A stretch of DNA of 64,000 nt from Octopus vulgaris (lineage: Eukaryota): NCBI GenBank assembly GCA_951406725.2, contig OX597831.1, forward strand, positions 31,744,001-31,808,000. Reading direction: 5' to 3'. Shown here piece by piece: positions 2-47,765 of the stretch. The position numbers and the translations under genes are program-made. The notes under the pieces are model-generated. The model was given only the letters and a program-made list of their open reading frames with translations, was not told where the DNA came from and made no database searches. Numbering within the stretch: the stretch's first letter is position 1; every line of letters begins with the position of its first letter.

Positions 2-290
2 ATAAAACAATGGGTAGAAAAATACAGGGAACTCATAGATAAACGATTCAAAACAGACTTTATCACCAAAGCCACCTAATTAATACTTGAAGAAAACACA
101 TTCTTATTTAACAACAAGACATACCGACGAATAAAGGGCACGGCTATGGGTACGAAATTTGCACCTTCATATGCCAACCTGGTGATGTACCTTGAGAACA
201 AACTATACGATGAAATAGGGAAAGTCTTCGAACACGACTTCAGAGAAGACATCAAGAAAAAGTGGAAACGCTACCTCAATGACGATGATA
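2..290 (+). pseudogene. Penelope-like element (PLE) reverse transcriptase fragment, decayed
   Basis: Frame 2 reads [64 protein letters not shown]...WKRYLNDD. GTAMGxxxAPxYANL and WxRY(L/I)DD are typical PLE RT motifs. There is an in-frame stop and the YxDD motif is altered. Not in the ORF track. Confidence 0.85.
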
Positions 291-600
291 AATCCAGACA
301 ATTTTTTGAAAAATAACTTAGAGTAGCCACCTGGCTTTGCCATTTTTAAAGGCCAAGAATCAACTCATCACTTTCTATTGAAAGAATTGACCAGCTGTAA
401 AGATGCAAGCACATTTTTTCTTCTTTCTCTCTTCCTTCTCTTTTCCATTGACAATCCTTTCAGATATACAGGCGCGCGCGCACACACACACACTCTCTCT
501 CACTTTCTCCCCATTCCTCATCCTATTTTACTATCCTATATCTCTCTCCACCCTTACACACTCAATACTATAAAAAGAGACGACTCCCCACAAAAAATTC

Positions 601-641
601 AAATCTGAAGAATCTACTAGAGTAGATGCAAGCGCTAATAT
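601..641 (+). ncRNA. Hammerhead-ribozyme-like motif (degenerate) downstream of the PLE RT
   Basis: CTGAAGA (605-611), perfect stem ATCTAC-taga-GTAGAT, then GCAA (in place of GAAA) and palindromic GCGC. This is the layout of minimal type I hammerheads in PLE pseudo-LTRs. Confidence 0.55.
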
Positions 642-718
642 ATGATTTATAAAAACAGGCTACATATTAATAAAAATCTGTAAATGTTCAACCATCCAGA
701 TTGCTGAGTACCGTATTT

Positions 719-790
<72 letters not shown>

Positions 791-929
791 GTGATGGTGA
801 GCCTGCTGAAGAAGAAAGGGATATTCAATGTGTGCAACAAATGTAAAGACTTACTTCGCTGGAGTACAGATCACCGAACAATCACGGCTGAGCAGTGGAG
901 AGAAGGAGCGTTCCACCACGGCACACACA

Positions 930-1098
930 CACACACACACGACAGTCTTCTTTCGGTTTCTGCTACCAAATCCATTCATAGGGCTCTGATCGGCCCTAAG
1001 CTATAGTGGAAGACGCTTGCTGAAGGTGTCACGCAGTGGAACTGAACGCGGAACCATGTGGTTGGGAAGCAAACTTCTTACCACACAGCCACTTCTGT
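930..1098 (-). mobile_element. SINE family B (tRNA head), 5' portion
   Basis: Reverse complement matches the first half of the fuller copy at 51629-52018 (gtggctgtgtggtaag...gttcagttccactgcgtg...gatttggtag). Confidence 0.8.
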
Positions 1099-1471
1099 AG
1101 ACCTACATACATCACATGGTAAGTAAAAGGGGGTTGTATGTATATAAAGAGAGACGGAATTATAGCAGAATTCCTCAACACAATGTCGTACTATTGAAAG
1201 CCGAATCAGAAACAATTTCCCAAGATATTTCGTCACGTTGCTTTCAGATTCCGTATATACTTACATTATTTGTGTCCCACCCAAACTCAGCTGCAAAATA
1301 GACCAGACTTAAGTAGTTCACTTGCTTAACACTTTACGTGAAACGCACACACAGACACGCACACACACATACAGTTACATATGTATGTATTTATTATATT
1401 ATAAATACGGATGTATGTATCATTGGGTGGTGGCGGCGACGGTGGTTTGTTGATATATCTTTGTATATATT

Positions 1472-2040
1472 CCTGTTTCTTTATTGCCTACAAGGGGCTA
1501 AACATAGAGGAGACAAACAAGGACAGACAAACGGATTAAGTCGATTACATCGACCCCAGTCTGTAATTTATCGACCCCGAAATTATGAAAGGCAATTTGA
1601 ACTCAGAACGTAATGGCAGACGAAATACCTATTTCTTTACTACCCACAAGGGGCTAAACACAGAGTGGACAAACAAACGGATTAAGTCGATTATATCGAC
1701 CCCGGTGCGTAACTGGTACTTATTTAATCGACTCCCAAAGGATGAAAGGCAAAGTTGACCGCGGCGGAATTTGAACTCAGAACGTAGCGGCAGACGAAAT
1801 ACCTAATTCTTTACTACACACAAGGGACTAAACACAGAGAGGACAAACAAGGACAGACAAACGGATTAAGTCGATTATATCGACCCCAGTGCGTAACTGG
1901 TACTTAATTTATCGACCCCGAAAGGATGAAAGGCAAAGTCGACCTCAGCGGAATTTGAACTCAGAACGTAACGGCAGACGAAATACGGCTACGCATTTCG
2001 CCCGGCGTGCTAACGTTTCTGCCAGCTCCCCACGCCTTGC
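1472..2040 (-). mobile_element. SINE family A, trimeric (one head plus repeated bodies)
   Basis: Three consecutive copies of the body (caaggggctaaaca...cggattaagtcga...tttgaactcagaacgta), head at ~2037. Candidate TSD atctttgtatatatt (1457-1471) / atcttcgcatatatt (2041-2055). Confidence 0.85.
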
Positions 2041-2701
2041 ATCTTCGCATATATTACAAAACAAAGAAGAAAAGAACAAGCTGACATGTCACGTGACCAG
2101 CTACTCTGGCTATGATGGATCCATCACGTTCAAACAATACTGTATTATCCGGCTGTTGAATTTTCTCATGTACAGTGTCGGAAAGAATACATCCACCGGG
2201 AACTCAGAGACGGCGATACAGGGATCAACTAAACCGAACACCCCTCCGAGAAGCGAGCGATCAGTTACATCGGCTGACGCATTTGAGCGCTTGCTCGGTA
2301 GGAGAAAATGCCACGTTGGGTGTGATTTCTTTCAAAGTAACCTGAAAGAGGAGGAGGGCTGACAGAAGTTGATATCGACGGTGAGAAGCAAGACCCTCAA
2401 AGGGAACTCTTGGACCCTGCTGGGAATCAATTCTTATGCTCTCGTTGTCAAGGTTCTTTTGGATCAAAGACACACTTATACAGCCATCTTAGAACACAGA
2501 TCAATTCAATGGAAACACATCTTTAATACTAAGAGACGCCACTGTTGTTAATGATGATGATGAATTATAAAAGTGAAAACAAAAAGAGGGGGATTTGTGA
2601 AGAATATCAGTAAAGGATTTTTATAAATATCGCTTGTATATTAACGGATACTTTATGGGGAAATTGGCAAAAAGCATTTATTTTATTAAATTCCAGAGAT
2701 G

Positions 2702-2891
2702 AAATAAATCATTTTTAACGGTGGAACTCGAAGTATTTAGAGCTAGAAATAAAAACAGATAAGATATTCAGTTCAAAAATACTTTGGATGAAAAACAAGT
2801 CGAAGGCTGCCCGTGGGACTCGAACCCAGTATTCAACACATTATTTAAAGCTTTATCTACTTCGAGTCCCACTGTTAAAAACGAGTTATTT
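2702..2891. repeat. Imperfect ~50-bp inverted repeat (foldback/MITE-like)
   Basis: aaataaatcatttttaacggtggaactcgaagtatttagagctagaaataa (2702-2752) pairs with 2841-2891. Confidence 0.65.
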
Positions 2892-3410
2892 TAGTTATAT
2901 TTTATGGTTGGTGGTTCTATAGCGAGACCAATTTCTATTATGGCATATTGAAAAGAATCAGGATTTTATAGGCTCAGCACGTTAATCAGTAATCGGTAAT
3001 AGCCGATTTACCTATCACTTGAGTTTTAAATATTGGCTGAGTCCTGTGTTGTGATTGGTTGAGTATTGGATCGAAGGTCCAATCACGTTGTGCATAATAC
3101 ATTCTCAGACAACTAATCGCCATGTGCTCTGGAGCCTACTTTTTTCCATAAATTGGTGCGACGATTTATTTATGAGCAGAGGGGTGAGAGTTTTTCATCA
3201 AGGTGAGTTATGTTGATTTCCTGCTGGTTTCACCAGGGGAAAGTTAATATAACGAAACCCATGTAACCAAGAACGACCTATCGTAGATGTTCCATACCAT
3301 CGGACTACTTACCTTAATGGTGCGCTCACAATATATTTCTGTTTTATTTTGGATTTTTCTAGTATACAATTTACATATTTTTCCAGTTGACATTGTTTGT
3401 AGGAACATAT

Positions 3411-3688
3411 TGGCACTCCGTCGGTTGCGACGACGAGGGTTCCAGTTGATCCGATCAACGGAAGAGCCTGCTCGTGAGATTAACATGCAGGTGGCTGAGC
3501 ACTCCACAAACGTAGTTCTTGGGTAGATTCAGCGTGACATAGAGTGGGACAAGGTTGGTCCTTTTAAATACAGGTACAACAGAAACAAGAAGAAAGAGTG
3601 AGAGAAAGCAGGGTTCGCCACCACCCCGTGCCGGAGCCTCGTGGAGCTTTAGGTGTTTTCGCTCAATAAACACTCACAACACCCGGTG
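3411..3688 (-). mobile_element. SINE family C variant (shares 3' module with 60193-60473)
   Basis: cagttgatccgatcaacggaa...gtggctgagcactccacaaac...gattcagcgt...gacaaggttgg is shared with 60193-60375. Confidence 0.7.
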
Positions 3689-6593
3689 GACAGCACTCTC
3701 TCCCCACTCCACCCCCTAGAACTTAACCAGTTTCATGTAAATTACCATTTTCAGTTATTGTTGTGTGGTGCAGTGCACTACTACTAATAAGACAAATAAA
3801 GAAGAAGAAGAAGAAGAAGAAGAAGAAGAAGAAGAAGAAGATGATGATGATGATGATGATGATCGTCGTCATGTTGGAGTCGTTGACTCTAGAGTACAAA
3901 GCTTATCTCTCCGGCATTCTCAATGCCCCATGGAAATCTGAAGGTAAAAGAGATACCACCTCACATGCACAGATGGTTTTCTACAAGCGACAGAACAAAC
4001 CCGATGCTTTTATGTTCTCGTATAGCTGATATCTAATACCCCTGATCATTACATCCTTCCCTGTACACCGTCTTAAAAACCCAACAGACAGAACCTTATC
4101 GTTTCCCTTACATTTAACAGTGTAAAAACAAGATCGCTGTAATATATAGCTTTTATTTCTTCTTGCTTTCTTCGGTCTTCAAACATCTTGAATGAATGAA
4201 GGCAGCACCACGCAGTGAGAGGCAAAGTGTCAGTAATGGTTGATAGAAAATTCTGACATCTTACTCCGTTCTTGTCGTGGCCCAGGGTGATGATAAAATG
4301 ATTGATGGGAACACAACATGAACGCTCCTTGTTGCAGCTTTCACCTGACTGATCCAGAAAGAAGGAGGGAAAAAGGAATCCAGCCTATATTTGGCTGATA
4401 TTTATCGACCCCTGAAGGGATAAGAAGTAGGGCTCAGGAGGGTTTGAACTTGGTGTGTAGACAGCCGAGATAAATATCACAGCTACAAAACTATCCTAAT
4501 TAACGTCCTACCGACTGCCAATTCGTTCGTTTTACACCCTGCAAAATACCTAAATACCAGATGTTTGACCCTTTGCATGTCCCGTGTATCATTTGTGATA
4601 CTCAGGACATATTTCCCTGGAGTCCATGCATTATATATGATGAACATTCCCAATTTTTTTCCAACTTCGTGCGTTCCGAGTTATGTTTCCAACCACCAGA
4701 GTAACTTAGGACTTATGAGAGGAAAGTTAATTATTGCTTAATTCAACCTGTTTCAGCCTTTGTTTGGCATTGAAAGATATTGTTTATAATGATGATGGTG
4801 ATGATGATGATGATGATGATGATGAATAGCATTATTATTATTATTATTAGCTTAGTCCCAGTTGTAGCTATTTCCTTTCCATTAGGCCTAACTAAAAGTC
4901 TGAAAACAAGCGTGGACGTTTAGGACAAACTTAAGAAACTGCTTTGGACAAGTAAAAGGTTAATCTGTTGTTGGGGACATAAATTATATTAATTAACATG
5001 AAATTTTGATGGACAACTTTGATTTAGATAACTTCCAGGGGAGCCTGAGGGGGCACGCTCCCCACTCAGGAAAAGTGCACCCTTCTAAATAATATTATTA
5101 CGCCCTTTTCTCCGGAAATTGTATTCCTTTCTGACCTTGTGCCCTTCCTTCGAAAAATTCCTGGTACCGCGCCCGACTTCAACCCTTTTGTTACCATATT
5201 TTTGTTGAAATACACCATCTTTGTTTCATTTAATTTTGTTGTTATCAATCCTTTGCCTGTCCTGTGTGTCGCCTATGATTCACTGGAAATATTTTCCTGG
5301 CGTTCATACAACCACTTGAGTAATACGAGACTTATAAAAGAAAAAGCTTTAAATTACAACTTACGAAACCGGAGCAAACGAAAAGCCTGTAAACAAGCAT
5401 GAATGTTAAGGGATAAATTTGTAAAAATGCTTTGGACAAGGTAAAGAGAAATGTAAGTTGACATGAAAGTTTGAATGGCTGGTCTTAATTTAGATCACTG
5501 TAAAGCGAAAAGTTTGTATCGTAGAACCAAAAGCAGTTTCGTGCCGAAATGTTTAAATCTAATATTTATATTATTATATTTGGCTGGAATCCCTCAGACC
5601 ATACGCCTGTTCAATCAGCGTTGACCCCTGAATAAACAATTTTCACAACAGAAACCACAAATCAATGAGAGTGCATTTTCATATTCGCAAGACTTGCAAG
5701 AGCTAGCAGCCAACTCTCCCTCAAACTACACTTTAGTTTTACAAAAAAGGACACTATTGTAGCCTTAAATACACAACATTAAAAAAAGAAGAAAGACTGG
5801 AAGGTTGTGGTTGTAAACCATTGATCAAAGATCTGTCTGGTAGACAGATGCTGACCTGGCGATAAACAACAACTGAGTCCACCCGCTATGTTAAATGGGG
5901 TAAAAAAAAGTAGTACAAAAGAAGTGAAAAAAAGACAAAAAAACCCCAAATCAGTGAGTGGGGGAGGGGAAGACATATAATGAACAACAGCTTCCCTACA
6001 TAGAAGTTGGTCTCCCGTGATAATAGGTTGTGGCTGTAATCATATTTTATTGTGTGTTTCAGCAATAATCTTAAGAGCAGCAGATTTTCAGGCATCGAGG
6101 AGAAAGAAACCCTCTTCAAAAATATTTCCCACATGTTGTGTAAATTTAATGTGAAACGAAAACGAGGAGAATGAAGCGAAAATAAAATATACAAAATATT
6201 GTCAAGTTCGACATATAAAACCCTTACCTGACACATTAAAACACTTAGTGTCTGTGCAAAAGCGACTGTGACATCTCTATTTACATGTGTTGGCTTTTTA
6301 AATGTCTGTGTTTTCGCAATGCAAACCACATATATGAAAATTATAGCTTACGTATACGTGTATGTAGTTGTGTGTATAAACACATTAACTCTCTCTCTCT
6401 CTCACACATACACACACGAGGGAGAGAGAGAGAGAGAGAGAGAAGGGGAGAGAGGGGGTGGGGAGCGCATTCTGAAAGTTTTACTACATTATAACTTTGT
6501 TTGAAAAGTTAAAACAAAGATAAAAACGACTACGAAATATGTAATAGACAATAAAAACAAGATTTAAAAGTGACACTGATATTTGAACCGCCT

Positions 6594-7210
6594 AAGGCGG
6601 CGAGCTGGCAGAAACGTTAGCACACTGGGCGAAATGCTTAGTGGTCTTTCGTCTGCCGCTACGTTCTGAGTTCAAATTCCGCCGAGGTCGACTTTGCCTT
6701 TCATCCTTTCAGGGTCGATTAAATAAGTACCAGTTACGCACTGGAGTCGATATAATCGACTTAATCCGTTTGTCCTCTTTGTATTTAGTCCCTTGTGGGT
6801 AGTAAAGAAATAGGTATTTCATTTGTCTTTACGTTCTGAATTCAAATTCCGCCGAGGTCGACTTTGCCTTTCATCCTTTCGGGGTCGATAAATTAAATAC
6901 CAGTTACGCACTGGGATCGATGTAATCGACTTAATCCGTTTGTCTGTCCTTGTTTGTCCCCTCTGTTTAGCCCCTTGTGAGCAATAAAGAAATAAGAAAC
7001 GTTAGCACTCCGGACGAAATGTTTAGCAGTATTTCGTCTGTCTTTACGTTCTGAGTTCAAATACGGCCGAGGTCGACTTTGCCTTTCATCCTTTTGGGGT
7101 CGATAAATTAAGTACCAGTTGCGTATTGGAGTCGATTTAATCAACTGCACCCCCACCCACCCCCCACACACACCGAAAACAATTCGGGCCTTGTGCCTAG
7201 AGTAGGAAAG
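6594..7210 (+). mobile_element. SINE family A, trimeric, flanked by a 16-bp TSD
   Basis: Head ggcggcgagctggcagaa (A box), B box gagttcaaattcc, three bodies. TSD gatatttgaaccgcct (6578-6593) / gatatttgagccgcct (7211-7226). Confidence 0.9.
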
Positions 7211-8733
7211 GATATTTGAGCCGCCTCTGTACGCATATGGACACACACAGAGACACGCGCGCGCATTAGATGTGTGTGTGAAAAAGAGTAATTTTAACTA
7301 TTTTAAAACACAAATTGTTATATTCCCTCTTCGTTTATTTATTTTATAGTTTCAAGTTTCGTCTTTTGGCAGTTTGCTCTCTCTTCTTTTCTATTAAAGA
7401 CAATATATTTCATTATCGTTCACACACACACACACAATCTGCTTTGCTTATAATAAGATGCTATGTAGATTAGATTCTTGCAATGCAGATGTATTTAAAC
7501 GTTATGACAAATAAACAAAATAATTGAGAAAAATATTACAATATATCAAACTCCTCTCTCTCTCTCTCTCTCTTACAATATAAGAGTTTTTGTGTGCTCT
7601 TCAATGGGCTCAATATTTCTTTCACGCGTTCGTTTCCAAATCACATGGTTCTGGGTTCAATCCAGTTGACAAATGGTGGTGGGGAACAAACATGTAAATA
7701 CAATCTTACTTCACAGTGTAGAAAAGGCAGGAGTTTCTTGACGGACCGTTTCACAGTCCGCCACTCCCCAGAGAAGACGTATACGGGTTCCTTCCTTACT
7801 TTCACTCATTCAAGGACACAGACGTAGCAGTAAGGTTGACTCATAACAATCAGCACCGCCTCCTAGTTGCCATCGGCTGCCGGAAATTATCTTAAAATTG
7901 TCAGCTTATTTCTTGCACAAAATGTCGATTCAAAGTGGATGTTTATTTTTAATCAAAAAGAAACACAATGCCAACAACTCTTCACCAGAGACTCTGAGAT
8001 GAGTTGGAAGGTGCGAGAGGACTGCTTGCAGCAGGGTAATCTCTGTTAAAGGTATCCAAAGTACCCAGGGACCTATCCAAGGTACCATGAAGTTAAACTG
8101 TGGTGACGGATTAAATCTAATATGGTGGGATTTGAACACAAAACGCTAAGATCCGGAACAAGTACTATAGGGCATCCGGTCCGACGTCCTTACAGTTCTG
8201 CCAATCCGCTGCAATGAACTGGTACAGTGTTTTTCTATTTTATTTTATCAACTCGGAAATGCGAAGTTGACCTTGATAGGAGGTTGGACTTAGAGTATCT
8301 AGTGTAATAACAAACACTATTTGTCATTCTATCCCAAGCACAAACAATTCAGTCTTTACATTTCTGTATTAATAACAGAATTACCAAATAAAGACATCTT
8401 GCCAGAACAACTGAGAAACTATCAAAGTTGCATAATAGTCATGCTTTCGTCGATGACCGGAAAAGAATCACATATCACATAAACAATATGTCATTTGACT
8501 GAAATAGAATAATTATTTGATTTACAGAGAAATTGAGACAAACAGAAAAATAGTTCAGTTCTAGCTTAATTTTGGGATGCTGATTTCAGATACAAAACTA
8601 GTTTTCACTCGTCACCTCTAGTTTTTGAGATGTACATTATTATGATTTTGCGACCATTCACGTAGCCATATATATGATCAGTTTTTATTTTGTTTTCCAG
8701 ATTTTTGTAATACATATGATAAATATCTCTACA

Positions 8734-9965
8734 ATGGCTTCAGGCACGTCAAAACACCGAGGATGCATCAACAAAACAAATTCATTCTGCTACGTGTGTG
8801 GGGATTTCACGACAGTTGCACAGCGCCGAACATTTATTTCTCTCCTGAGAATTGCTTACTTTCATTATTTTGACTATAAAATTGGAGATCAGTAAAAATC
8901 CTGGGCCCCACACATCTGCTGTAAGCCTTGCTACAATGGACTAACTGCATGGTTTAACGGCAAGAAAGCAGCCTTCCACTTTGCTGTCCCGATGGTCTGG
9001 AGAGAGCCACGAAGCCATGCAGATGATTGTTATTTTTGTCTAACAAATATAAAAGGTTTCAATGCTTCTTCTAGAAAAAAATATAAAATATCCCAACCTT
9101 CCCTCAGCTATCCCAACCTGTCCCCCACTCAGATGATCTCCCTGTCCCTTCACTCCCAACAAATAAGGATCTCCTTCTTTCATCAGGTGAAGAAATGCCT
9201 TCAGAGGAATATTCTGCCAAGTCAATCTTTTCTGAAGACAAATGTCTCTATTTATTCAGGAGCAAGTGGCAATGAACCCCACTGAATAACGCAAGAAGAC
9301 TTGAATGACCTAGTCCGTGATTTGCATCTATCTAAGCAGTAGTCAGAGCTCCTGGCATCCCAGCTTAAGCAGTAGAACCTGGTCAAAGCAGACGTGAGGG
9401 TCACCAGTTTCAGGACACAGAACCATGACTTTGCTTCATTCTTTGACATAGAAAACAAGTTGTGCTACTGCACAAATGTCTCTGGCTTGTTTAGCTTTCT
9501 TGGTTTCCCACACAATCCCTCAGACTGGCGTCTTTTCATAGACTCTTCCAAGTGAAGTCTGAAGGCTGTGCTTCTGTACAATGGGAATAAACACCTCAGC
9601 ATTCCCGTTGCCTACTCAGTCCATCTGAAGGAGTCGTATGGCAATATCGAGTTCCTTTAGGAAGTTGTCAGGTACAACCAGTACCAGTGGTGTTTCTGTG
9701 GGGACCTCAAGGTCACTGAGCTTCTTATGGGTATGCAAGCGGGTTTCACAAAATACTGTTGCTTCCTCTCTCTCTCTGGGACAGTCGGGCTGTGTCCAAG
9801 CACTACAAGACAGGGGATCTAGGAACACTTTCGTGCATGGTGAACACAGTGTCCAAGAAAATCCTCTGGTGGACATGAACAAGGTGCTTCTTTCTATTCA
9901 TATCAAGCTTGGTTTAATGAAGAATTTCGTGAAGACCATGAACAAAAAAAGGCGCTGCCTTCCAA
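8734..9965 (+). pseudogene. Chapaev3-like transposase, N-terminal part (Chapa zinc finger plus first two catalytic Asp)
   Basis: CYVCG...GDQ*KSWAPHICCKPC...VPMVWREPRSHADDCYFC; WRLFIDSSK*SLKAVLLYNGN; WCFCGDLKV; GMQAGFTKYCCFL; HIKLGLMKNFVKTM..GAAFQ. Multiple stops and frameshifts. Confidence 0.85.
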
Positions 9966-11043
9966 AAATTTTTGGGTAAAGTTTTCGGTGAAAATTTTCG
10001 AAAACTTTTTGGTTAAAATTTTCGGTGAAAATTTTCGCAAAATTTTTGGGTAAAATTTTCGAAAAGTTTTTGGTGAAATTTTCGGAAAAATTTTGGGTAA
10101 AATTTTCGAAAACTATTTGGGTAAAATTTTCGGTGAACATCGAAAAATTTTTGGAGAAAATTTTCGGTGAAAATTTTCGAAAAATTTTTTGGGTAAAATT
10201 TTCGGTGAAAATATTCGGAAAATTTGTGGGTAAAATTTTCGGTGAAAATTTTCGGAAAATTGTCGGAAAACATTTGCGGTGCCAAAATCACAAAGTATGG
10301 AAGGCCAGCTGTGCCAAAATCACAAAGTATGGAAGGCCAGTGGTGCCCAAATCACAAAGTATGAAAAGCCAGCGGTGCCCAAATCACAAAGTATGGAAAG
10401 CCAGCGGTGCCAATTTTCGAAAAATTTTCGGGTAACATTTTCGGTGAAAATTTTCGAAAAATTTTTGGGTAAAATTTTCGGTGAAAATTCTCGAAAAATT
10501 TTTGGGGAAAATTTTCAGTGAAAATTTTCGAACACTTTAGGTGAAATTTAACCAAAAAATTTTTCCCATAAATTATTCGAAAATTTCACCCAGAAAGTTT
10601 TCGAAAATTTTCCCCAAAAATTTGTCGAAAATTTTTGGGGAAAATTTTCGAAAAATTTTTGAAAACTTCGGTGAAAATTTTTGGGTGAAATTTTCGACAA
10701 ATTTTTGGGGAAAATTTTCTGAAAATTTTCGAAAACTTTTTGGTTAAAATTTTCGGTGAAAATTTTCGCAAAATTTTTGGGTAAAATTTTCGGTGATAAT
10801 ATTCGGAAAATTTTGGAGTAAAATTTTCAGTGAAAATTTTCGAAAAATTTTTGAAAAATTTCGGTAAAAATGTTTGGAAAATTTTGGGATAAAATTTTCG
10901 ACAAATTTTTGGGTAAAATTTTCAAAAAATTTTTAGGTAAATTTTTGGATTTTTGGGTAAAGATTTCGGTGAAAATTTTCGTAAAAATTTTTGGGTAAAA
11001 TTTTGGCTAAAACTTTTTAGGTGAAATTCTTGGCAAATTTTTG
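9966..11043. repeat. Satellite A, left block: irregular 10-13-bp A/T-tract words (aaaattttcggtg, aaaattttcg, aaaatttttgggt)
   Basis: Directly visible; begins immediately after the transposase codons GAAFQ. Confidence 0.95.
10278..10413 (+). repeat. 4 x 32-bp cassette, copy 1 (ggtgccaaaatcacaaagtatggaaggccagc)
   Basis: Units start at 10278, 10310, 10342 and 10374, with a partial fifth at 10406. Confidence 0.95.
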
Positions 11044-14000
11044 GGTACCCTCTTTGATCTCTGTCGGCACCCTCTTTGATCTCTGTCGGCCGCTCTTTGA
11101 TCTCTTTCGGCACCCTCTTTGATCTTTTTCGGTACTCCTCTTTGATCTCTGTCGGTACCCTCTTTGATCTGTGCCGGCCCCTCTTTGATCTCTTTCGACA
11201 ACCTCTTTGATATCTTTCGGTACTCCTTTTTCATCTCTTTCGGCACTCCTATTTGATCTCTTTCGGCACCCTATTTGATCTCTGTCGGCACCCTCTTTGA
11301 TCTCTGTCGGTACCCTCTTTGATCTTTTTCGGTACTCCTCTTTGATCTCTGTCGGCAACCTCTTTGATCTCTTTCGACAACCTCTTTGATCTCGTTCGGT
11401 ACTCCTTTTTCAACTCTTTCAGCACTCCTCTTTGATCTCTTTCGGCACCCTCATAGATCTTTTTCGGTACTCCTCTTTGGTCTCTGTCGGCAACCTCTTT
11501 GATCTCTGTCGGCACCCTCTTTGATCTCTTTCGACAACATCTTTGATCTCTTTCGGTACACCTTTCTCATCTCTTTCGGCACCCCTCTTTGATCTCTGTC
11601 GGCACCCTCTTTGATCTCTGTCAGCACCTTCTTTGATCTTTTTCGGTACTCCTCTTTCATCTCTTTCGGCACCCTCTTTGATCTCTGTCGGAACCCTCTT
11701 TAATCTCTGTCGGAACCCTCTTTGATCTCTGCCGGCACCCTCTTTGATCTTTTTCGGTACTCCTCTTTGGTATATGTCGACAACCTCTTTGATCGCTTTC
11801 GGCACCCTCTTTGATCTTTTTCGGTACTCCTCTTTGATCTCTGTCGGTACCCTCTTTGATCTCTGTCGGCCCCTCTTTGATCTCTTTCGACAACCTCTTT
11901 GATCTCTTTCGGTACTCCTTTTTCATCTCTTTCGGCACACTATTTGATCTCTGTCGGCACCCTCTTTGATCTCTGTCGGCACCCTCTTTGATCTCTGTCG
12001 GTACCCTTTGATCTTTTTCGGTACATCTCTTTGATCTCTGTCGGCACCCTCTTTGATCTCTTTCGACAACCTCTTTGATCTCTTTCGGTACTCCTTTTTC
12101 ATCTTTCGGCACCCATCTTTGATCTCTGTCTGTACCCTCTTTGATCTCTGTCGGTACCCTCTTTGATCTCTTTCGGTACTCCTCTTTGATCTCTGTCGGC
12201 CCTTCTTTGATCTATTTCAGCACCCTCTTTGATCTCTGTCGGCACCCTCTTTGATCTTTTTCGGTACTCCCCTTTGATCTCTGTCGGCCCTCCTTTGATC
12301 TCTTTCGGCATCCTCTTTGATATCTGTCGGCATCTTTGATCTTTTCGGTACTCCTCTTTCATCTCTTTCGGTACTCCTCTTTGGTCTATGTCGGTACCCT
12401 CTTTGATCTCTTTCGGTACTGCTTTTTCATCTCTTTCGGTACTCCTCTTTGATCTCTGTCGGCCCCTCTTTTATCTCTTTCGGTACTCCTTTTTGATCTC
12501 TTTCAGCACTCCTCTTTGATGTCTTTCGGCACCCTATTTGATCTCTGTCGGCACCCTCTTTGATCTCTGTCGGCACCCTCTTTGATCTTTTACGGTACTC
12601 CTCTTTGATCTATGTCGGCACACTCTTTGTTCACATTCGGCACCCTCTTTGATCTCTTTCGGTACTCCTTTTTCATCTCTTTCGGCACTCCTCTTTGATC
12701 TCTGTCTGTACCCTCTTTGATATCTGTCGGTACCCTCTTTGATCTCTTTCGGTACTCCTCGTTTATCTTTTTCGGTACTCCTCTTTGATCTCTGTCGGCA
12801 CCATCTTTGATCTATTTCGGCACCCTCTTTGATCTCTGTCGGCACCATCTTTGATCTTTTTCGGTACTCCTCTTTGGTCTATGTCGGCACCCTCTTTGAT
12901 CTTTTTCGGTACTCCTTTTTGGTCTATGTCGGCAACCTCTTTGATCTCTGTCGGTACCCTCTTTGATCTCTGTCGGCCCTCCTTTGATCTCTTTCGGCAT
13001 CCTCTTTGATATCTGTCGGCATCTTCTTTGATCTTTTCGGTACACCTCTTTCATCTCTTTCGGTACTCCTCTTTCGTCTATGTCGGTACCCTCTTTGATC
13101 TCTTTCGACAACCTCTTTGATCTCTTTCGGTACTGCTTTTTCATCTCTTTCGGTACTCCTCTTTGATCTCTGTCGGCCCCTCTTTTATCTCTTTCGGTAC
13201 TCCTTTTTCATCTCTTTCGGCACTCCTCTTTGATGTCTTTCGGCACCCTATTTGATCTCTGTCGGCACCCTCTTTGATCTTTTACGGTACTCCTCTTTGA
13301 TTTATGTCGGCACCCTCTTTGTTCACATTCGGCACCCTCTTTGATCTTTTTCGGTACTCCTCTTTGATGTCTTTCGGCACCCTATTTGATATTTTCGGTA
13401 CTCCTCTTTGATCTCTGTCGGCACCCTCTTTGATATTTTCGGTACTCCTCTTTGATCTATGCCGGCACACTCTTTGATCACATTCGGCACATTCTTTGAT
13501 CACATTCGGCACCCTCTTTGATCTCTGTCGGCATCCTCTTTGATCTTTTTCGGTACTCCTCTTTGATTTTTTTCGGTACTCCTTTTTGATCTCTGTCGGC
13601 ACCTTTTTTTATCTTTGTCGGTACTCCTCTTTGATCTCTGTCGGCACCCTCTTTGATCTTTTTCGGTACTCTTATTTGGTCTCTGTCGGCACCTTCTTTG
13701 ATCTCTGTCGGCAACCTCTTTGATCTTTTTCGGTACTCCTTTTTGATCTCTTTCGGCACTCCTCTTTGATCTCTTTCGGCACCCTCCTTGATCTCTGTCG
13801 ACACCCTCTTTCATCTTTGTCAGTACCCTCTTTGATCTCTTTCGGTACTTGTCTTTGATCTTTTTCGGTACTCCTCTTTGATCTCTGTCGGCACCCTCTT
13901 TGATCTTTTTCGGTACTCCTCTTTGGTCTATGTCTGCAACCTCTTTGATCTCTATCGGCACCTCTTTGATCTCTGTCGGCACCCTCTTTGGTCTGTCGGC

Positions 14001-17000
14001 ACCCTCTTTGATCTTTTTCGGTACTCCTCTTTGATCTCTTTCGACAACCTCTTTGATCTCTTTCGGTACTCCTCTTTGATCTCTGTCGGCCCCTCTTTTA
14101 TCTCTTTCGGTACTCCATTTTCATCTCTTTCGGCACCCTGTTTGATCTCTGTCGGCACCCTCTTTGATCTTTTACGGTACTCCTCTTTGATCTATGTCGG
14201 CACCCTCTTTGTTCACATTCTGCACCCTCTTTGATCTTTTTCGGTACTCCTCTTTGATGACTTTCGGCACCCTATTTGATATTTTCGGTACTCCTCTTTG
14301 ATCTCTCTCGGCACCCTCTTTGATCTTTTTCGGTACTCCTCTTTGATCTATGCCGGCACACTCTTTGATTTGTCGGTAACCTCTTTGATCTTTTTCGGTA
14401 CTCCTCTTTGATCTCTGTCGGCACCCTCTTTGATCTCTGTCGACACCATCTTTGATCTTTTTCGGTACTCCTCTTTGATCTATGTCGGCAACCTCTTTGA
14501 TCTCTTTCGACACCCTTTTTGATCTTTTCGGTACTGCTTTTTCATCTCTTTCGGCACCCTATTTGATCTCTGTCGGCACCCTCTTTGATCACTGTCGGCA
14601 CCCTCTTTGATCTTTTACGGTACTCCTCTTTGATCTATGTCGGCACCCTCTTTGTTCACATTCGGCACCCTCTTTGATCTCTTTCGGTACTCCGTTTTCA
14701 TCTCTTTCGGCACCCCTCTTTGATCTCTGTCTGTACCCTCTTTGATCTCTGTCGGTACCCTCTTTGATCTCTTTCGGTACTCCTCGTTTATCTTTTTCGG
14801 TACTCCTCTTTGATCTCTGTCGGCCCTTCTTTGATCTATTTCGGCACCCTCTTTGATCTCTGTCGGCTCCATCTTTGATCTTTTTCGGTACTCCTCTTTG
14901 GTCTATGTCGGCACCCTCTTTGATCTTTTTCGGTACTCCTTTTTGGTCTATGTCGGCAACCTCTTTGATCTCTGTCGGTACCCTCTCTGATCTCTTTCGG
15001 TACTCCCCTTTGATCTCTGTCGGCCCTCCTTTGATCTCTTTCGGCATCCTCTTTGATATCTGTCGGTATCTTCTTTGATCTTTTCGGTACTCCTCTTTCA
15101 TCTCTTTCGGTACTCCTCTTTGGTCTATGTCGGTACCCTCTTTGATCTCTTTCGACAACCTCTTTGATCTCTTTCGGTACTCCTGCTTTTTCATCTCTTT
15201 CGGTACTCCTCTTTGATCTCTTTCGGCACTTCTGTCTGTTCTCTTTCGGCACACTATTTGCTCTCTGTCGGCACCCTCTTTGATCTCTGTCGGCACCCTC
15301 TTTGATCTCTGTCGGTACCCTTTGATCTTTTTCGGTACATCTCATTGATCTATGTCGGCACCCTCTTTGTTCACATTCGGCACCCTCTTTGATGTTTTTC
15401 GGTACTCCTCTTTGATGTCTTTCGGCACCATATTTGATATTTTCGGTACTCCTCTTTGATCTCTGTCGGCACCCTCTTTGATCTTTTTCGGTACTCCTCT
15501 TTGATCTATGCCGGCACACTCTTTGATCACATTCGGCACATTCTTTGATCACATTCGGCACCCTCTTTGATCTCTGTCGGCATCCTCTTTGACCTTTTTC
15601 GGTACTCCTCTTTGATCTCTGCCGGCACCTTTTTTTATCTTTGTCGGTACTCCTCTTTGATCTCTGTCGGCACCCTCTTTGATCTTTTTCGGTACTCCTA
15701 TTTGGTCTCTGTCGGCACCTTCTTTGATCTCTGTCGGCAACCTCTTTGATCTCTGTCGGCAACCTCTTTGATCTTTTTCGGTACACCTTTTTGATCTCTT
15801 TCGGCACTCCTCTTTGATCTCTTTCGGCACCCTCTTTGATCTCTGTCGACACCCTCTTTCATCTCTGTCGGTACACTCTTTGATCTCTTTCGGAACTTGT
15901 CTTTGATCTTTTTCGGTACTCCTCTTTGATCTCTGTCGGCGCCCTCTTTGATCTCTGTCGGCACCCTCTTTGATCTTTTTCGGTACTCCTATTTGGTCTC
16001 TGTCGGCACCTTCTTTGATCTCTGTCGGCAACCTCTTTGATCTTTTTCGGTACTCCTTTTTGATCTCTTTCGGCACTCCTCTTTGATCTCTTTCGGCACC
16101 CTCTTTTCATCTCTGTCGGTACACTCTTTGATCTCTTTCGGTACTTCTCTTTGATCTTTTTCGATACTCCTCTTTGATCTCTGTCGGCACCCTCTTTGAT
16201 CTTTTTCGGTACTCCTCTTTGGCCTATGTCTGCAACCTCTTTGATCTCTGTCGGTACCCTCTTTGATCTCTTTCGGTACTCCCCTTTGATCTCTGTCGGC
16301 CCTCCTTTGATCTCTTTCGGCATCCTCTTTGATATCTGTCGGCATCTTCTTTGATCTTTTCGGTACTCCTCTTTCATCTCTTTCGGTACTCCTCTTTGGT
16401 CTATGTCGGTACCCTCTTTGATCTCTTTCGACAACCTCTTTGATCTCTTTCGGTACTCCTGCTTTTTCATCTCTTTCGGTACTCCTCTTTGATCTCTGTC
16501 GGTACCCTTTGATCTTTTTCGGTACATCTCATTGATCTATGTCGGCACCCTCTTTGTTCACATTCGGCACCCTCTTTGATCTTTTTCGGTACTCCTCTTT
16601 GATGTCTTTCGGCACCCTATTTGATATTTTCGGTACTCCTCTTTGATCTCTGTCGGCACCCTCTTTGATCTTTTTCGGTACTCCTCTTTGATCTATGCCG
16701 GCACACTCTTTGATCACATTCGGCACATTCTTTGATCACATTCGGCACCCTCTTTGATCTCTGTCGGCATCCTCTTTGATCTTTTTCGGTACTCCTCTTT
16801 TATTTTTTTCGGTACTCCTCTTTGATCTCTGTCGGCACCTTTTTTTATCTTTGTCGGTACTCCTCTTTGATCTCTGTCGGCACCCTCTTTGATCTTTTTC
16901 GGTACTCCTATTTGGTCTCTGTCGGCACCTTCTTTGATCTCTGTCGGCAACCTCTTTGATCTTTTTCGGTACACCTTTTTGATCTCTTTCGGCACTCCTC

Positions 17001-17916
17001 TTTGATCTCTTTCGGCACCCTCTTTGATCTCTGTCGACACCCTCTTTCATCTCTGTCGGTACACTCTTTGATCTCTTTCGGAACTTGTCTTTGATCTTTT
17101 TCGGTACTCCTCTTTGATCTCTGTCGGCGCCCTCTTTGATCTCTGTCGGCACCCTCTTTGATCTTTTTCGGTACTCCTATTTGGTCTCTGTCGGCACCTT
17201 CTTTGATCTCTGTCGGCAACCTCTTTGATCTTTTTCGGTACTCCTTTTTGATCTCTTTCGGCACTCCTCTTTGATCTCTTTCGGCACCCTCTTTTCATCT
17301 CTGTCGGTACACTCTTTGATCTCTTTCGGTACTTCTCTTTGATCTTTTTCGAAACTCCTCTTTGATCTCTGTCGGCACCCTCTTTGATCTTTTTCGGTAC
17401 TCCTCTTTGGCCTATGTCTGCAACCTCTTTGATCTCTGTCGGCACCTCTTTGATCTCTGTCGGCACCCTCTTTGATCTCTGTCGGCACCCTCTTTGATCT
17501 TTTTCGGTACTCCTCTTTGGCCTATATCGGCAACCTCTTTGATCTCTGTCGGCACCCTCTTTGATCTCTTTCGACACCCTCTTTGATCTGTTTTGGTAGT
17601 CCTCTTTCATCTCTTTCGGCACCCTCTTTCATCTCTGTCGCCACCTTCTTTGATCTTTTTCGGTACTCCTCTTTGATCTCTGTCGGCATCCTCTTTGATT
17701 TGTCGGTAACCTCTTTGATCTTTTTCGGTACTCCTCTTTGATCTCTGTCGGCACCCTCTTTGATCTCTGTCGGCACCATCTTTGATCTTTTTCGGTACTC
17801 CTCTTTGATCTATGTCGGCAACCTCTTTGATCTCTTTCGACACCCTCTTTGATCTCTTTCGGCAACCTCTTTGATCTCTGTCGGTACCCTCTTTGATGTC
17901 TTTTGGCACCCTCTTT
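11044..17916. repeat. Satellite B: ~300 variant units of 21-23 bp (ggcaccctctttgatctctgtc / ggtactcctctttgatctttttc)
   Basis: Pyrimidine-rich on +, near-invariant core tctttgatc. The unit count is estimated as length/22. A higher-order 1188-bp duplication is visible. Confidence 0.95.
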
Positions 17917-18338
17917 TGGAGAAAATTTTCTGTGAAATTTTCGAAAAATTTTTGAAAACTTTTCAGTTGAAATTTTCGGAAAATTTTTGGGTAAAATTTT
18001 CGATGAAAATTTTCAGAAAATATTCGGTGAAAATTTTCGCAAAATTTTTGGGTAAAATTTTCGGTGAAAATTTTCGAAAACTTTAGGTTAAAATTTAGGT
18101 AAATTTTTGGGTAAAGTTTTCGGTGAAAATTTTCGAAAACTTTTTGGTTAAAATTTTCGGTAAATTTTTGGGTAAAGTTTTCGGTGAAAATTTTCGAAAA
18201 CTTTCTGCTGAAAATTCTCGGTAATTTTCGCAATATTTTTGGGTAAAATCTTCGGTGAAAATATTTGGAAAATTTTTGGGTAAAATTTTCGAAAACTTTT
18301 TGGGTAAAATTTTCGGAAAATTGTCGGATAACATTTGC

Positions 18339-18474
18339 AGTGCCAAAATCACAAAGTATGGAAGGCCAGCGGTTCCCAAATCATAAAGTATGGAAGGCCA
18401 GTGGTGCCCAAATCACAAAGCATGAAAAGCCAGCGGTGCCCAAATCACAAAGTATGGAAAGCCAGCGGTGCCAA
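18339..18474 (+). repeat. 4 x 32-bp cassette, copy 2
   Basis: Same unit order as copy 1 (ggaagg, ggaagg, gaaaag, ggaaag variants). Confidence 0.95.
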
Positions 18475-20760
18475 TTTTCCAAAAATTTTCGGTGAAAATT
18501 TTCGCAAAATTTTTTAGGGAAAATTTTCGGTGAAAATTCTCGAAAAATTTTTGAAAAATTTCGGTGAAAATTTTCGAAAACTTTTTGGGTAAAAGTTTCG
18601 GAAAATTGTCGGATAACATTTTCGGTGAAAATTTCCGAAAAATTTTTGAAAAATTTCGGTGAAAATGTTCGGGTGGAATTTTCGACAAATTTTTGGGAAA
18701 AATTTTCTGAAAATTTTTTGGGTAAAATTTTCGAAAACTTGTTAGGTGAAATTTTCGGTAAATTTTTGGGTAAAGTTTTCGGTGAAAATTTTCGAAAACT
18801 TTTTGGTTAAAATTTTCGCAAAATTTTCGGGTAAAATTTTTGGTGAAAATATTCGGAAATTTTTGGGTGAAATTTTCGGAAAAATTTTTGAAAAATTTCG
18901 GTGAAAATTTTCGAAAACTTTTTGGGTAAAAGTTTCGGAAAATTGTCGGATAATATTTTCGGTGAAAATTTCCTAAAAATTTCGGTGAAAATGTTCGGGT
19001 GAAATTTTCGACAAATTTTGTGGAAAAATTTTCTGAAAATTTTTGGGTAAAATTTTCGGTGAAAATTTTCGAAAACTTGTTAGGTGAAATTTTCGGTAAA
19101 TTTTTGGGTAAAGTTTTCGGTGAAAATTTTCGAAAACCATTTGGTTAAAATTTTCGGTGAAAATTTTCGCAAAATTTTCGGGTAAAATTTTTGGTGAAAA
19201 TATTCGGAAATTTTTGGGTGAAATTTTCGGAAAAATTTTTGAAAAATTTCGGTGAAAATTTTCGAAAACTTTTTGGGTAAAAGTTTCGGAAAATTGTCGG
19301 ATAATATTTTCGGTGAAAATTTCCTAAAAATTTCGGTGAAAATGTTCGGGTGAAATTTTCGACAAATTTTGTGGAAAAATTTTCTGAAAATTTTTGGGTA
19401 AAATTTTCGGTGAAAATTTTCGAAAACTTGTTAGGTGAAATTTTCGGTAAATTTTTGGGTAAAGTTTTCGGTGAAAATTTTCGCAAAATTTTCGGGTAAA
19501 ATTTTTGGTGAAAATATTCGGAAATTTTTGGGTGAAATTTTCGGAAAAATTTTTGAAAAATTTCGGTGAAAATTTTCGAAAACTTTTTGGGTAAAAGTTT
19601 CGGAAAATTGTCGGATAATATTTTCGGTGAAAATTTCCTAAAAATTTCGGTGAAAATGTTCGGGTGAAATTTTCGACAAATTTTGGGGAAAATTTTCTGA
19701 AAATTTTTGGGTAAAATTTTCGGTGAAAATTTTCGAAAACTTGTTAGGTGAAATTTTCAGTAAATTTTTGGGTAGTTTTCGGTGAAAATTTTCGAAAACT
19801 TTTTGGTTAAAATTTTCGGTGAAAATTTTCGCAAAATTTTCGGATAAAATTTTTGGTGAAAATATTCGGAAATTTTTGGGTGAAATTTTCGGAAAAATTT
19901 TGGGTAAAATTTTCGAAAACTTTTTGGGTAAAATTTTCGGAAAATTGTCGGATAACATTTTCGGTGAAAATTTCCGAAAAATTTTTGTGTAAAATTTTCG
20001 GTGAACATCTTCAAAAATTTTTGGAAAAATTTTCGGTGAAAATTTTCGCAAAATTTTCGGGTAAAATTTTCGGTGAAAATATTCGGAAATTTTTGGGTGA
20101 AATTTTCGGAAAAATTTTGGGTAAAATTTTCGAAAACTTTTTGGGTAAAAGTTTCGGAAAATTGTCGGATAACATTTTCGGTGAAAATTTCCGAAAATTT
20201 TTGTGTAAAATTTTCGGTGAACATCGAAAAATTTTTGGAGAAAATTTTCGGTGAAAATTTTCAGTGAAAATTTTTGGGAAAATTTTCGAAAACTTTTTGG
20301 GTGAAATTTTCGGTAAATTTTTGGTTAAAGTTTTTGGTGAAAATTTTCGGTAAATTTTTGTGTAAAATTTTCGGTGAAAATTTTCGCAAAATTTTTGGGT
20401 GAAATTATTCGGAAAATTTTTGGGTAAAATTTTCGAAAAATTTTTGAAAAATTTCGGTAAAAATTTTGGGGTAAAATTTTCGGTGAACATCTTCGAAAAA
20501 TTTTTGGAGAAAATTTTCGTTGAAAATTTTCGAAAAGTTTTTGGAGTAAATTTTCGAAAACTTTTTGGGTGAAATTTTCGGTAAATTTTTGGGTAAAGTT
20601 TTTGATGAAAATTTTCGAAAAACTTTCTGGTTAAAATTTTCGCAAAATTTTTGGGTAAAATTTTCGGTAATTTTCGCAAAATTTTCGGGTAAAATTTTCG
20701 GTGAAAATATTCGGAAAATTTTTGGGTAAAATTTTCGGAAAATTGTCGGATAACATTTGC

Positions 20761-20896
20761 GGTGCCAAAATCACAAAGTATGGAAGGCCAGCGGTGCCAA
20801 AATCACAAAGTATGGAAGGCCAGTGGTGCCCAAATCACAAAGTATGAAAAGCCAGCAGTGCCCAAATCACAAAGTATGGAAAGCCAGCGGTGCCAA
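20761..20896 (+). repeat. 4 x 32-bp cassette, copy 3
   Basis: Units start at 20761 with a partial fifth at 20889; same variant order. Confidence 0.95.
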
Positions 20897-20962
20897 TTTT
20901 CGAAAAATTTTCGGGTAATATTTTCGGTGAAAATTTTCGAAAAATTTTTTGGGAAAATTTTC

Positions 20963-21335
20963 TACAGTCTTATGAGGATATGGAATACTGAATATCACTC
21001 AAAATTCACTTTCTCCACTCCTATCTCAACTTCTTGGTAACACACGGGTACTAGATTACCAAGAGTGTACCGAGAAGCTGTTACAGTCTTATGAGGATAT
21101 GGGATGCTGAATATCACTAAAATTCACTTTCTCCACTCACACCTCAACTTCTCTTCGAAGCTCGGAGCAGTGAGTGATGAGCATGGAGAAAGGCTCCACC
21201 AAGATATTACTAAGATGGAGAGAAACTACGAAGGCAAGTAGAACCTCCAATATGAAGGAGGACTTTTGCTGGATGCTCTTGCGTATCATCCCGGAGGCAA
21301 AGTACACAAGATCGTCGAAAAAAACTCATTTATGA
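20963..21335 (+). pseudogene. Chapaev3-like transposase, C-terminal part (catalytic Glu region)
   Basis: QSYEDMEY*ISLKIHFLHSYLNF / FLGNTRVLDYQECTEKLLQSYEDMGC*ISL..HFLHSHLNF / LGAVSDEHGERLHQDITKMERNYEGK* / DFCWMLL. Confidence 0.85.
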
Positions 21336-21581
21336 CTGTCTGCTGTATTATGATATGTGTGTATTGTATTATCCAAGTAATTTAGTTCCGTGAATGTTCT
21401 GTATCTATGCTGCTTTCTGTGGTTTCTTTTTCTTTTCTGTAATATGCATTTGTAACAGATGAAATAAACACATTATATTTTGAATTGATATGCAGTATAA
21501 ATGGGAGATGCGAGCTAAAAAAAATTTTGTAAACAAGTGTAATAGATGGAAACTGAAAGAAGACTGTTTTTTCCTCTCCCT

Positions 21582-21982: not shown

Positions 21983-22320
21983 TGTGTGATTGTTTGTGAC
22001 CCCCTTCGGTCAGACACTGACCATGGGCTTGCACCTAGAGAATTACCCTCTGAGGCACAAGTCTGGGCAAGGTGGTTTATGGAAGACCAGTAGTCGCCCA
22101 TGCATACCGGCCTCCTCTCTCCAGTCACCAGTGTTATCCAAGGGAAAGGCAAAGGCCGATACAGCTTGGCACCTGTGACATCGCAACTCATTTCTACAGC
22201 TGAGTTAACTGGAGCAACGTGAAATAAAGCGTCTTGCTCAAGAACACAACACGCAGCCCGGTCCGGGATTCGAGCTCACAACCTCACGATCGCTCTAACC
22301 ACTGAGCCACGCGCCTTCAC
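21983..22320 (-). mobile_element. SINE family C (tRNA head, RTE-like 3' tail) with 11-bp TSD
   Basis: Head gtgaaggcgcgtggctcagtggttagagc...ctcgaatcccgg. TSD tgaatacatat at 21972-21982 and 22321-22331. Confidence 0.85.
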
Positions 22321-47199: not shown

Positions 47200-47765
47200 T
47201 GAGTGTGTTTTAATACTAATCAGAGACGCCCCCACAAAATCCTGGATTGACCCGGCTCCCAAATTATGCCCACATGCCCTATTAACTCAGGTCATGTTCA
47301 CCAATCTCACCCACCTTTCAATAAATTTACTAGATGGTATCTTCAAATGGTATTTGTAAAAGTTAGCGAGGACATGACGTACAGCCGCTGCTGAGTGCAT
47401 CCAAACTTATCTAATACTTTACCGCTTACACAATGACCACCAAACAAAGAAATTGCTTGTCCTCTTTGCCAAAAGGAAGTCGGAAATGTTATGTTCTCAA
47501 TTGACTCATCTGACAACCAGATCCATTCTGCTCACACACAAACAACAATTGCTCAACATAACTCCACTAGTTCCTAATCGTTAAACATTGAATGAAGGCA
47601 TGGAGGATGGTTTTCTCGTACTTCACACTTTCGACAGATCCAACTCTTGGAATTACTGTGCATGTAGAACTTGTTCCGAACTAGCAAAACCTCCGCTAAA
47701 AATGTTAGACCAAATTTCTTTGAAAGTTGTTCAAAGCTTCAGAGTTGAAAAATCTCTGAAAGATA

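What the first reader, a model, noticed from the sequence alone, without database searches (positions are those of the whole stretch)
9966..20962. 11-kb three-component modular satellite replacing the middle of a Chapaev3 transposase
Seen: the order is A - 32mer cassette - A - B(6.9 kb) - A - cassette - A - cassette - A. It sits exactly between the transposase codons GAAFQ (9965) and QSYEDM (20963), with no TSD. The internal junctions overlap by 2-4 bp of shared sequence (A-to-B tttggGGTAccc; B-to-A ctcTTTtggagaaaa; cassette-to-A ggtgccAAttttcg). From my knowledge of the family, roughly 50 codons of transposase are missing at the site. Nothing else in the window resembles it. Inference: this is either an unrecognised all-repeat mobile or captured unit with direct-repeat-like A+cassette ends around a B core, or the product of iterative template-switching repair at a break in the transposon.
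Basis: partly seen in the sequence, partly recalled or inferred. Interest (0 to 1): 0.8.

Follow-up and report, generated by a model that had tools for sequence, protein, structure and literature searches.

The report
Octopus mixed-satellite chunk inside dead transposon
An 11-kb block of three tandem repeats sits inside a dead DNA transposon of what is likely an octopus genome; all three repeat types also occur outside this locus, so the block is likely a piece of pre-existing mixed satellite DNA pasted in by break repair, not a new mobile element.

Summary
The block is as described: A-C-A-B-A-C-A-C-A at 9966-20962, no TSD, inside a decayed Chapaev3-like transposase. Corrections: 55 codons are lost, the QSYEDM at 20963 is a 72-bp duplicate of sequence 119 bp downstream, and A2 holds an inversion with a perfect 26-bp hairpin. 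The parts are not private to this site. In contigs of four runs (three organism labels), A and the 32-mer are hundreds to thousands of times deeper than single-copy flank and are joined at many different phases. A different B subfamily underlies an Octopus vulgaris gene model. The three cassettes are in-register copies of one older A-C-A junction (2-6 differences in 138 bp). The ends are not LTR-like. Best reading (0.62): a chunk of a pre-existing mixed satellite domain was copied into a break, with deletion, short microhomologies and a local templated snippet, like Drosophila 1.688/Rsp-like mixed clusters. The outer junctions rest on the assembly alone. I found no description of these satellites in print, but an unseen O. 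vulgaris library lists 80 satellite families. Known kind, new member; modest interest.

The parts
8734..9965 (+). 5' part of a decayed Chapaev3-like transposase, with stops and frameshifts, ending at GAAFQ
   Evidence: tblastn of P0019 residues 1-312 onto 8734-9946
9966..10275 (+). A1: array of 10-15-bp AnTn words (satellite A)
10276..10413 (+). C1: 4.3 copies of the 32-mer (satellite C)
10414..11047 (+). A2: satellite A
10549..10654 (.). Inverted stretch inside A2 with a perfect 26-bp hairpin (10598-10623/10629-10654, 5-nt loop)
   Evidence: -59.6 kcal/mol against mean -35.4, best -39.9, for 62 other 191-nt A windows
11048..17915 (+). B: about 308 monomers of mostly 21-24 bp (satellite B), 141 distinct, with recent internal duplications (422 bp exact at a shift of 1188)
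17916..18336 (+). A3: satellite A
18337..18474 (+). C2: 32-mer cassette, 6 of 138 bases different from C1 and from C3
18475..20758 (+). A4: satellite A with 314-351-bp internal duplications (324 bp exact)
20759..20896 (+). C3: 32-mer cassette, 2 of 138 bases different from C1
20897..20962 (+). A5: 66 bp of satellite A, 95.5% identical to the 66 bp after C1
20963..21034 (+). 72-bp duplicate of transposase sequence 21082-21152 (5 substitutions, 1 indel), likely a templated insertion
21035..21542 (+). 3' part of the transposon, ending in GTG (21537-21539), then TAA, then T
   Evidence: hallmarks from PMC4079192

Best explanation
The block is likely an 11-kb piece of a pre-existing mixed satellite domain, made of three repeat families that also occur outside this locus, and was likely copied into a break in a dead transposon by microhomology-mediated, error-prone repair. 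Inferred order of events: (1) a 32-mer array joined an A array once; (2) that junction was duplicated with its A flanks, and a B array came to lie between two copies; (3) a break in the transposon lost 165 bp and was filled with the satellite piece plus 72 bp copied from just downstream. The source could be an interlocus template switch or a reinserted circle; the data cannot tell which. Shown: the anatomy, the deletion, the duplicate, the common origin of the cassettes, the presence of A and C with varied joints in other runs, and a B relative at another locus. Inferred: the single transfer, the donor locus and the repair pathway. It likely has no function of its own.
For: (20730-21560 laid on 4 of the 24 listed runs; three organism labels, four studies, three if X1 is left out as a possible source): summed depth on the cassette is 5.6e4-3.6e5 (X1), 0.9e4-8.9e4 (X2), 2.3e4-1.8e5 (X4), 1.9e3-1.7e4 (X7). 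Zero-difference flank contigs at 21164-21382 have depth 64 and 41 (X1), 28 and 11 (X2). My ratios are 216-5180 for the cassette and 4570-6624 for A5, or 7-167 and 147-214 after dividing by 31 for word overlap (not copy numbers; the X4 and X7 baselines are my rough picks). Distinct A/C joints are present at depth 10-250: 20945>20784, 20948>20775, 20949>20767, 20961>20775, 20961>20871, 20812>20920 (X1 and X2), and an inverted 20772/20895 (X4 and X7). X1 record 3 bridges cassette into A5 with 9 differences in 99 bp, so this junction type exists at another, diverged locus. Most genomic 32-mers differ from the window at 20863 (93% of depth in X1). B: the one strong hit among 1.84 billion representatives (E 4.9e-30) is an O. 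vulgaris hypothetical protein, CAI9722894.1. All 51 of its tblastn hits fall on B; 91 of its 246 5-mers are B words, 1 A and 0 C; its RSKTV variant occurs 0 times in the window's B. The cassettes are in-register copies. The outer junctions show a 55-codon loss, a 72-bp duplicate and no TSD.
Against: The outer junctions rest on the assembly alone; only the right one was examined. B was never laid, and no record shows B joined to A at another locus. No donor locus was found, because no genome is held. The 72-bp copy differs from its template by 5 substitutions, which would be improbable for a very young neutral event (p about 0.0009 at 1% divergence); this needs error-prone synthesis, greater age or consensus error, and is unexplained. 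Each microhomology alone is weak (p 0.03-0.17). The recent internal duplications in B and A4 could have arisen in place.
Confidence: 0.62

Rival explanations
1. Assembly artefact: satellite sequence was joined into the transposon by a misjoin, a chimeric read or gap filling.
For: No reads of the source individual were available. The 72-bp copy beside the junction has an odd cluster of 5 substitutions, 4 of them transitions.
Against: Both flanks are colinear parts of one element 55 codons apart, which is unlikely for a random misjoin. The block is internally accurate: exact 422-bp and 324-bp duplicates, and C1/C3 differ at 2 of 138. A deletion plus a local duplicate is the expected repair scar (recalled knowledge).
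Confidence: 0.13
2. Old seed grown in place: a short A-C-A piece entered the transposon long ago, and B and the extra cassettes arrived later by gene conversion and unequal exchange at this site.
For: The 8% divergence of the 72-bp duplicate fits an old event (a 5:1 split between copies is not significant, p=0.22). There are nested recent duplications in B and A4.
Against: The flank is identical over 219 bp to contigs of two other samples, which shows little local divergence, though it does not date the block. The cassette-to-A junction type also exists at another, 9%-diverged locus (X1 record 3).
Confidence: 0.1
3. An unrecognised all-repeat mobile unit with A+cassette direct-repeat ends around a B core.
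For: C1 and C3 lie near the two ends, 10,483 bp apart, with 2 differences, and the 66 bp after them are 95.5% identical.
Against: The would-be terminal repeats are no more alike than arbitrary A windows (83% against median 79%, best 86%). There is no TSD and no specific terminus; both ends fall inside A words. A third cassette lies inside. A/C joints elsewhere are many and varied. Target sequence was deleted.
Confidence: 0.07
4. The whole block was built at this break by serial template switching among separate A, B and C donors.
For: 2-4-bp overlaps at internal junctions, a fold-back in A2 and a templated local copy at the right end.
Against: Three cassettes with the same junctions and the same in-register variants but 1.4-4.3% divergence are not independent captures. 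B holds 141 distinct monomers with nested duplications.
Confidence: 0.05
5. A displaced piece of the spacer of a tandem gene cluster such as the rDNA intergenic spacer.
For: Layout only: short conserved cassettes between sub-repeat arrays and a polypyrimidine array resemble spacers (recalled).
Against: No Rfam match in the window. The varied A/C joints and the roughly 10% divergence among 32-mer arrays do not fit a homogenised spacer.
Confidence: 0.03

Closest known systems
Drosophila simulans-clade 1.688/Rsp-like mixed euchromatic satellite clusters (PMC7403614; abstract and 12 passages seen)
   Same: One satellite is inserted into arrays of another with 4-7 bp microhomology, one junction is reused in many clusters, small deletions and duplications mark the junctions, and mixed clusters are proposed to move as higher-order units by interlocus conversion or circle reinsertion.
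   Different: Here there are three families with much shorter units (10-15, 22-23, 32 bp), the landing site is a dead transposon with no prior satellite, the piece is 11 kb, and neither circles nor a donor were shown.
Tribolium castaneum Cast1-Cast9 euchromatic satellites, including mixed Cast2', Cast5 and Cast7 arrays (10.1101/2023.04.24.538079; 12 passages seen)
   Same: Kilobase-scale and mixed satellite arrays dispersed outside heterochromatin; insertion with microhomology at A/T tracts; circles proposed as the vehicle.
   Different: Cast2' is a regular unit of about 1270 bp made of much longer monomers; this block is irregular, and its spread as a unit is not shown.
Chapaev3 DNA transposons (PMC4079192; 6 passages seen), as the host only
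   Same: GTG 3' end followed by TAA and T; C(2)C, LH and H(4)H motifs in the homologues.
   Different: This copy is dead and its 5' CAC end was not found. Nothing suggests that the transposase moved the block.
O. vulgaris 'Satellite' class in a curated repeat annotation (PMC13282606; part 1 of 3, 8 passages and supplement rows seen)
   Same: 87.5 Mb (3.12%) in 80 families; A, B and C could be among them.
   Different: No sequences or organisation were visible to me, so identity is untested.

Membership tests
Mixed (compound) satellite DNA island | Head-to-tail arrays of short non-coding units | tested here: met
   monomer lengths of 21-24 bp break any frame; minus-strand ORFs reach at most 340 aa
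Mixed (compound) satellite DNA island | A and C are abundant elsewhere in the genome and interspersed with each other | tested here: met
   depth far above single-copy flank and many distinct A/C joints, in 4 of 4 runs laid
Mixed (compound) satellite DNA island | B occurs elsewhere | tested here: met
   one O. vulgaris gene model made of a different B variant; abundance not measured
Mixed (compound) satellite DNA island | B is joined to A at other loci; a donor array exists | not testable with these tools
   no genome held; the single read-laying run was used on the right junction
Mixed (compound) satellite DNA island | Large heterochromatic or centromeric arrays | not testable with these tools
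   needs the assembly, FISH or CENP-A mapping
LTR-type or other direct-repeat-bounded mobile element | Near-identical terminal direct repeats | tested here: not met
   83% against 79% median for arbitrary A windows
LTR-type or other direct-repeat-bounded mobile element | Target site duplication | tested here: not met
   165 bp deleted, no TSD
Foldback or MITE/Helitron with internal tandem repeats | Non-repetitive defined termini or terminal inverted repeats | tested here: not met
   both ends fall inside A words in the same orientation
Chapaev3 (host element) | GTG-3' end, TWA duplication, flanking T | tested here: met
   21537-21543 reads GTG, TAA, T (rule from PMC4079192)
Chapaev3 (host element) | 5'-CAC end with matching TWA | tested here: inconclusive
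   no convincing left end in 7500-8760
Chapaev3 (host element) | C(2)C, LH and H(4)H transposase motifs | tested here: met
   present in homologue P0019 and readable in the window's frames
Chapaev3 (host element) | Placement among named Chapaev3 transposases | not tested
   all 120 listed homologues are unnamed; no Pfam family above cut-off for 4 fragments
rDNA intergenic spacer or other tandem-gene spacer | Linkage to rRNA or other RNA genes; homogenised junctions | tested here: inconclusive
   no Rfam match in the window; varied joints; the species' rDNA unit was not available

The most novel reading that the evidence does not exclude
A, C and B are the undescribed (peri)centromeric satellites of Octopus, shared by several species, and 10-kb mixed blocks of them jump into euchromatic breaks as polymorphic islands. 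This locus would then be a ready-made assembled probe for octopus centromeres and a natural test of whether such an island seeds centromeric or silent chromatin.
Probability: 0.15. Interest if true: 0.65.

Novelty: new member of a known kind. Interest (0 to 1): 0.36.

Why it matters
It replaces the 'new all-repeat transposon' idea with a known process, satellite spread by break repair, seen here in a likely cephalopod genome. The usable result is three satellite families: A and C are abundant in runs of three organism labels, and B has a relative in O. vulgaris. My searches found no description of them, and they are candidate markers for octopus heterochromatin or centromeres. It also suggests that O. 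vulgaris gene model CAI9722894.1 is translated satellite rather than a protein.

Tried and rejected
No whole genome is held. Right junction in other runs: no listed contig bridges 20962/20963. At 20987 all depth in X1 (288.3 of 288.3) and X7 (12.8 of 12.8) shows G where the window has A. In X2 the 14.5 left over at 20994 equals the depth of a contig that differs at 20985. X4 leaves 21.2 and 49.2 unaccounted for. This hints that X1 and X2 carry an empty site, but contigs show presence, not absence; X1 was 80% read; and 9412 pieces, 75 joints and 47 letter rows were not shown. I do not count it as evidence. The low depth at the window-type A-to-cassette junction (bin 20730-20757: 1.7, 180, 7.7, 38) is at the edge of the laid stretch and is not counted either; no RNA holder listed; 10 of 15 holders had shares under 0.2, and of these only X7 was laid; B is 41% of the query's 31-mers, so the best share of 0.36 cannot show B. 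Collection scans: 32-mer motif, 0 in metagenomes, 0 in viral, 1 bacterial single match taken as chance (18, L001, not examined); B motif, 0 in metagenomes and viral; A motif, 0 in viral. Rfam 0. Translated cassette and translated A/B junction: no homologues. Second hit P0123 (E 6.5e-4, unnamed) looks unrelated by eye. Atlas: best score 0.88, low recognition, uninformative. Common origin or shared motif of A, B and C: unit alignments p=0.15-0.44, and the longest shared word of 4 bp is the shuffle mode; rejected. A recalled CENP-B-box core has 0 matches. A rolling-circle 1.05-turn concatemer is rejected. A megablast self-comparison returned no rows. None of 125 other fetched proteins carries 3 or more A/B/C words. 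Earlier findings: four look-ups, nothing. Not-in-print claim: searches octopus+satellite DNA (14), octopus+centromer+tandem repeat+genome assembly, cephalopod+satellite+repeat+heterochromatin, O. vulgaris+repeat+satellite, octopus+satellitome and a mollusc query, judged from listings. PMC10700109 has 0 occurrences of satellite, centromer or tandem. PMC9476566 only says satellites are relatively methylated (3 passages, 38). The SPLASH preprint passages are irrelevant. One search was seen as a listing only. Repbase, Dfam, subscription papers and the 80-family library were not visible and may hold these repeats.

Full report
Observation. No 16-mer of the block recurs in the rest of the window. 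The organism is likely an octopus: the flanking SINEs look octopus-like (recalled), and the only strong hit to translated B is an Octopus vulgaris gene model.

Host element. A 60-residue piece of the left flank finds 226 proteins; the best are 92-95% identical and all 120 listed are unnamed. The six that I aligned cover 8729-9970 and 20953-21434 in broken frames. The right end reads GTG, TAA, T at 21537-21543, the Chapaev3 pattern given in PMC4079192 (passages). I found no left end. So it is a dead Chapaev3-like copy; the name rests on hallmarks, not on a named hit.

Outer junctions. Three homologues have 55 codons from GAAFQ to LGN and 72 to xSYEDM. The window has GAAFQ, the block, a 72-bp piece starting at QSYEDM, then LGN onward with a second QSYEDM. 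Thus 165 bp are lost, and 20963-21034 duplicates 21082-21152 with 5 substitutions and one indel. A loose end in run X1 before 21033 reads as the normal upstream transposase stretch (compared by eye with P0019). Overlaps with A words are 2 bp at the left (6 bp with a variant that occurs once in the block) and 1 bp at the right. There is no TSD. Deletion, short overlaps and a locally copied snippet are the usual marks of microhomology-mediated repair (recalled knowledge).

Interior history. C1 and C3 differ at 2 of 138 bases and C2 at 6; all three share unit-specific variants in register and the same junctions with A. They are therefore aged copies of one earlier A-C-A junction. B and A4 hold nested recent duplications: 422 bp exact at a shift of 1188, and 324 bp at 351. 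A2 has an inverted stretch with perfect 26-bp arms; it folds at -59.6 kcal/mol against -35.4 on average and -39.9 at best for 62 other A windows. The ends are not terminal repeats: A1 is 83% identical to the 310 bp before C3, against a median of 79% and a best of 86% for 32 arbitrary A4 windows. The internal overlaps of 4, 3 and 2 bp have chance probabilities of 0.031, 0.078 and 0.169.

The parts exist elsewhere. Of 24 listed runs, 15 hold words of 16000-20962, five at a share of 0.20 or more and none at half. I laid 20730-21560 on four of them. Summed depth on the cassette and on A5 is 216 to 6624 times that of single-copy flank contigs, or 7 to 214 times after dividing by 31 for word overlap; these are not copy numbers, and two baselines are rough. 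The contigs show many different A/C joints at depth 10-250, one shared by X1 and X2 and an inverted one shared by X4 and X7. One X1 contig carries the cassette-to-A junction with 9 differences in 99 bp. Most 32-mers differ from the window's variant at 20863. X1 and X2 hold the flank 21164-21382 with no differences. For B, the hit CAI9722894.1 maps only to B in all 51 tblastn pieces, has 91 of 246 5-mers from B, 1 from A and none from C, and uses a variant absent from the window; it is another B array at another place.

Mechanism. The most likely reading (0.62) is one transfer of a chunk of an older mixed satellite domain into a break in the transposon, by interlocus template switching or reinsertion of a circle. 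This matches what PMC7403614 proposes for 1.688/Rsp-like clusters (passages) and what the Tribolium preprint proposes for Cast arrays (passages). The rivals are artefact (0.13), growth in place from an old seed (0.10), a fixed mobile unit (0.07), serial switching at this break (0.05) and a gene-cluster spacer (0.03). Whether the site is polymorphic is open; the hint is given under Tried and rejected and is not counted.

Novelty. Mixed satellite islands are a known kind. I found no description of these three families in six literature searches (listings only), but a curated O. vulgaris annotation lists 80 satellite families covering 3.12% of the genome (supplement row), and I could not see their sequences. 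The bioRxiv supplements were closed and may hold related detail. Verdict: the feature is as described in the assembly, a new member of a known kind, interest 0.36. The boldest reading left open is that these are octopus (peri)centromeric satellites moving as 10-kb islands (0.15; interest 0.65).

Noticed in passing
window 10549-10654: Inverted stretch inside A2 with a perfect 26-bp hairpin, the only perfect inverted repeat of 14 bp or more with a loop under 12 nt in the block; likely a fold-back template switch in the near-palindromic A words.
   Followed up: partly
window 20963-21034: The 72-bp duplicate carries 5 substitutions (4 transitions) against its template, while the nearby flank matches other samples exactly; unexplained.
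   Followed up: partly
P0122 (CAI9722894.1): An O. vulgaris 'hypothetical protein' that is largely translated B satellite; likely a spurious gene model.
   Followed up: partly
window 46677-47219, minus strand: 180-aa stop-free frame that looks like the C-terminal end of a LINE reverse transcriptase ORF (recalled).
   Followed up: no
window 52530-52979, minus strand: 149-aa stop-free frame that looks like a pogo/Tigger-type transposase fragment (recalled).
   Followed up: no
window 6590-7120 and 21985-22320: SINE-like repeats; the first has three tandem partial copies. The octopus assignment is recalled, not tested.
   Followed up: no
window 18473-20758: Satellite A is CpG-rich (observed/expected 3.35 against about 0.8 in the flanks), relevant because octopus satellites are reported as relatively methylated (PMC9476566, passages).
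   Followed up: no
L001:3001-3022: Single exact match of the 32-mer motif in a bacterial MAG contig; taken as chance and not examined.
   Followed up: no
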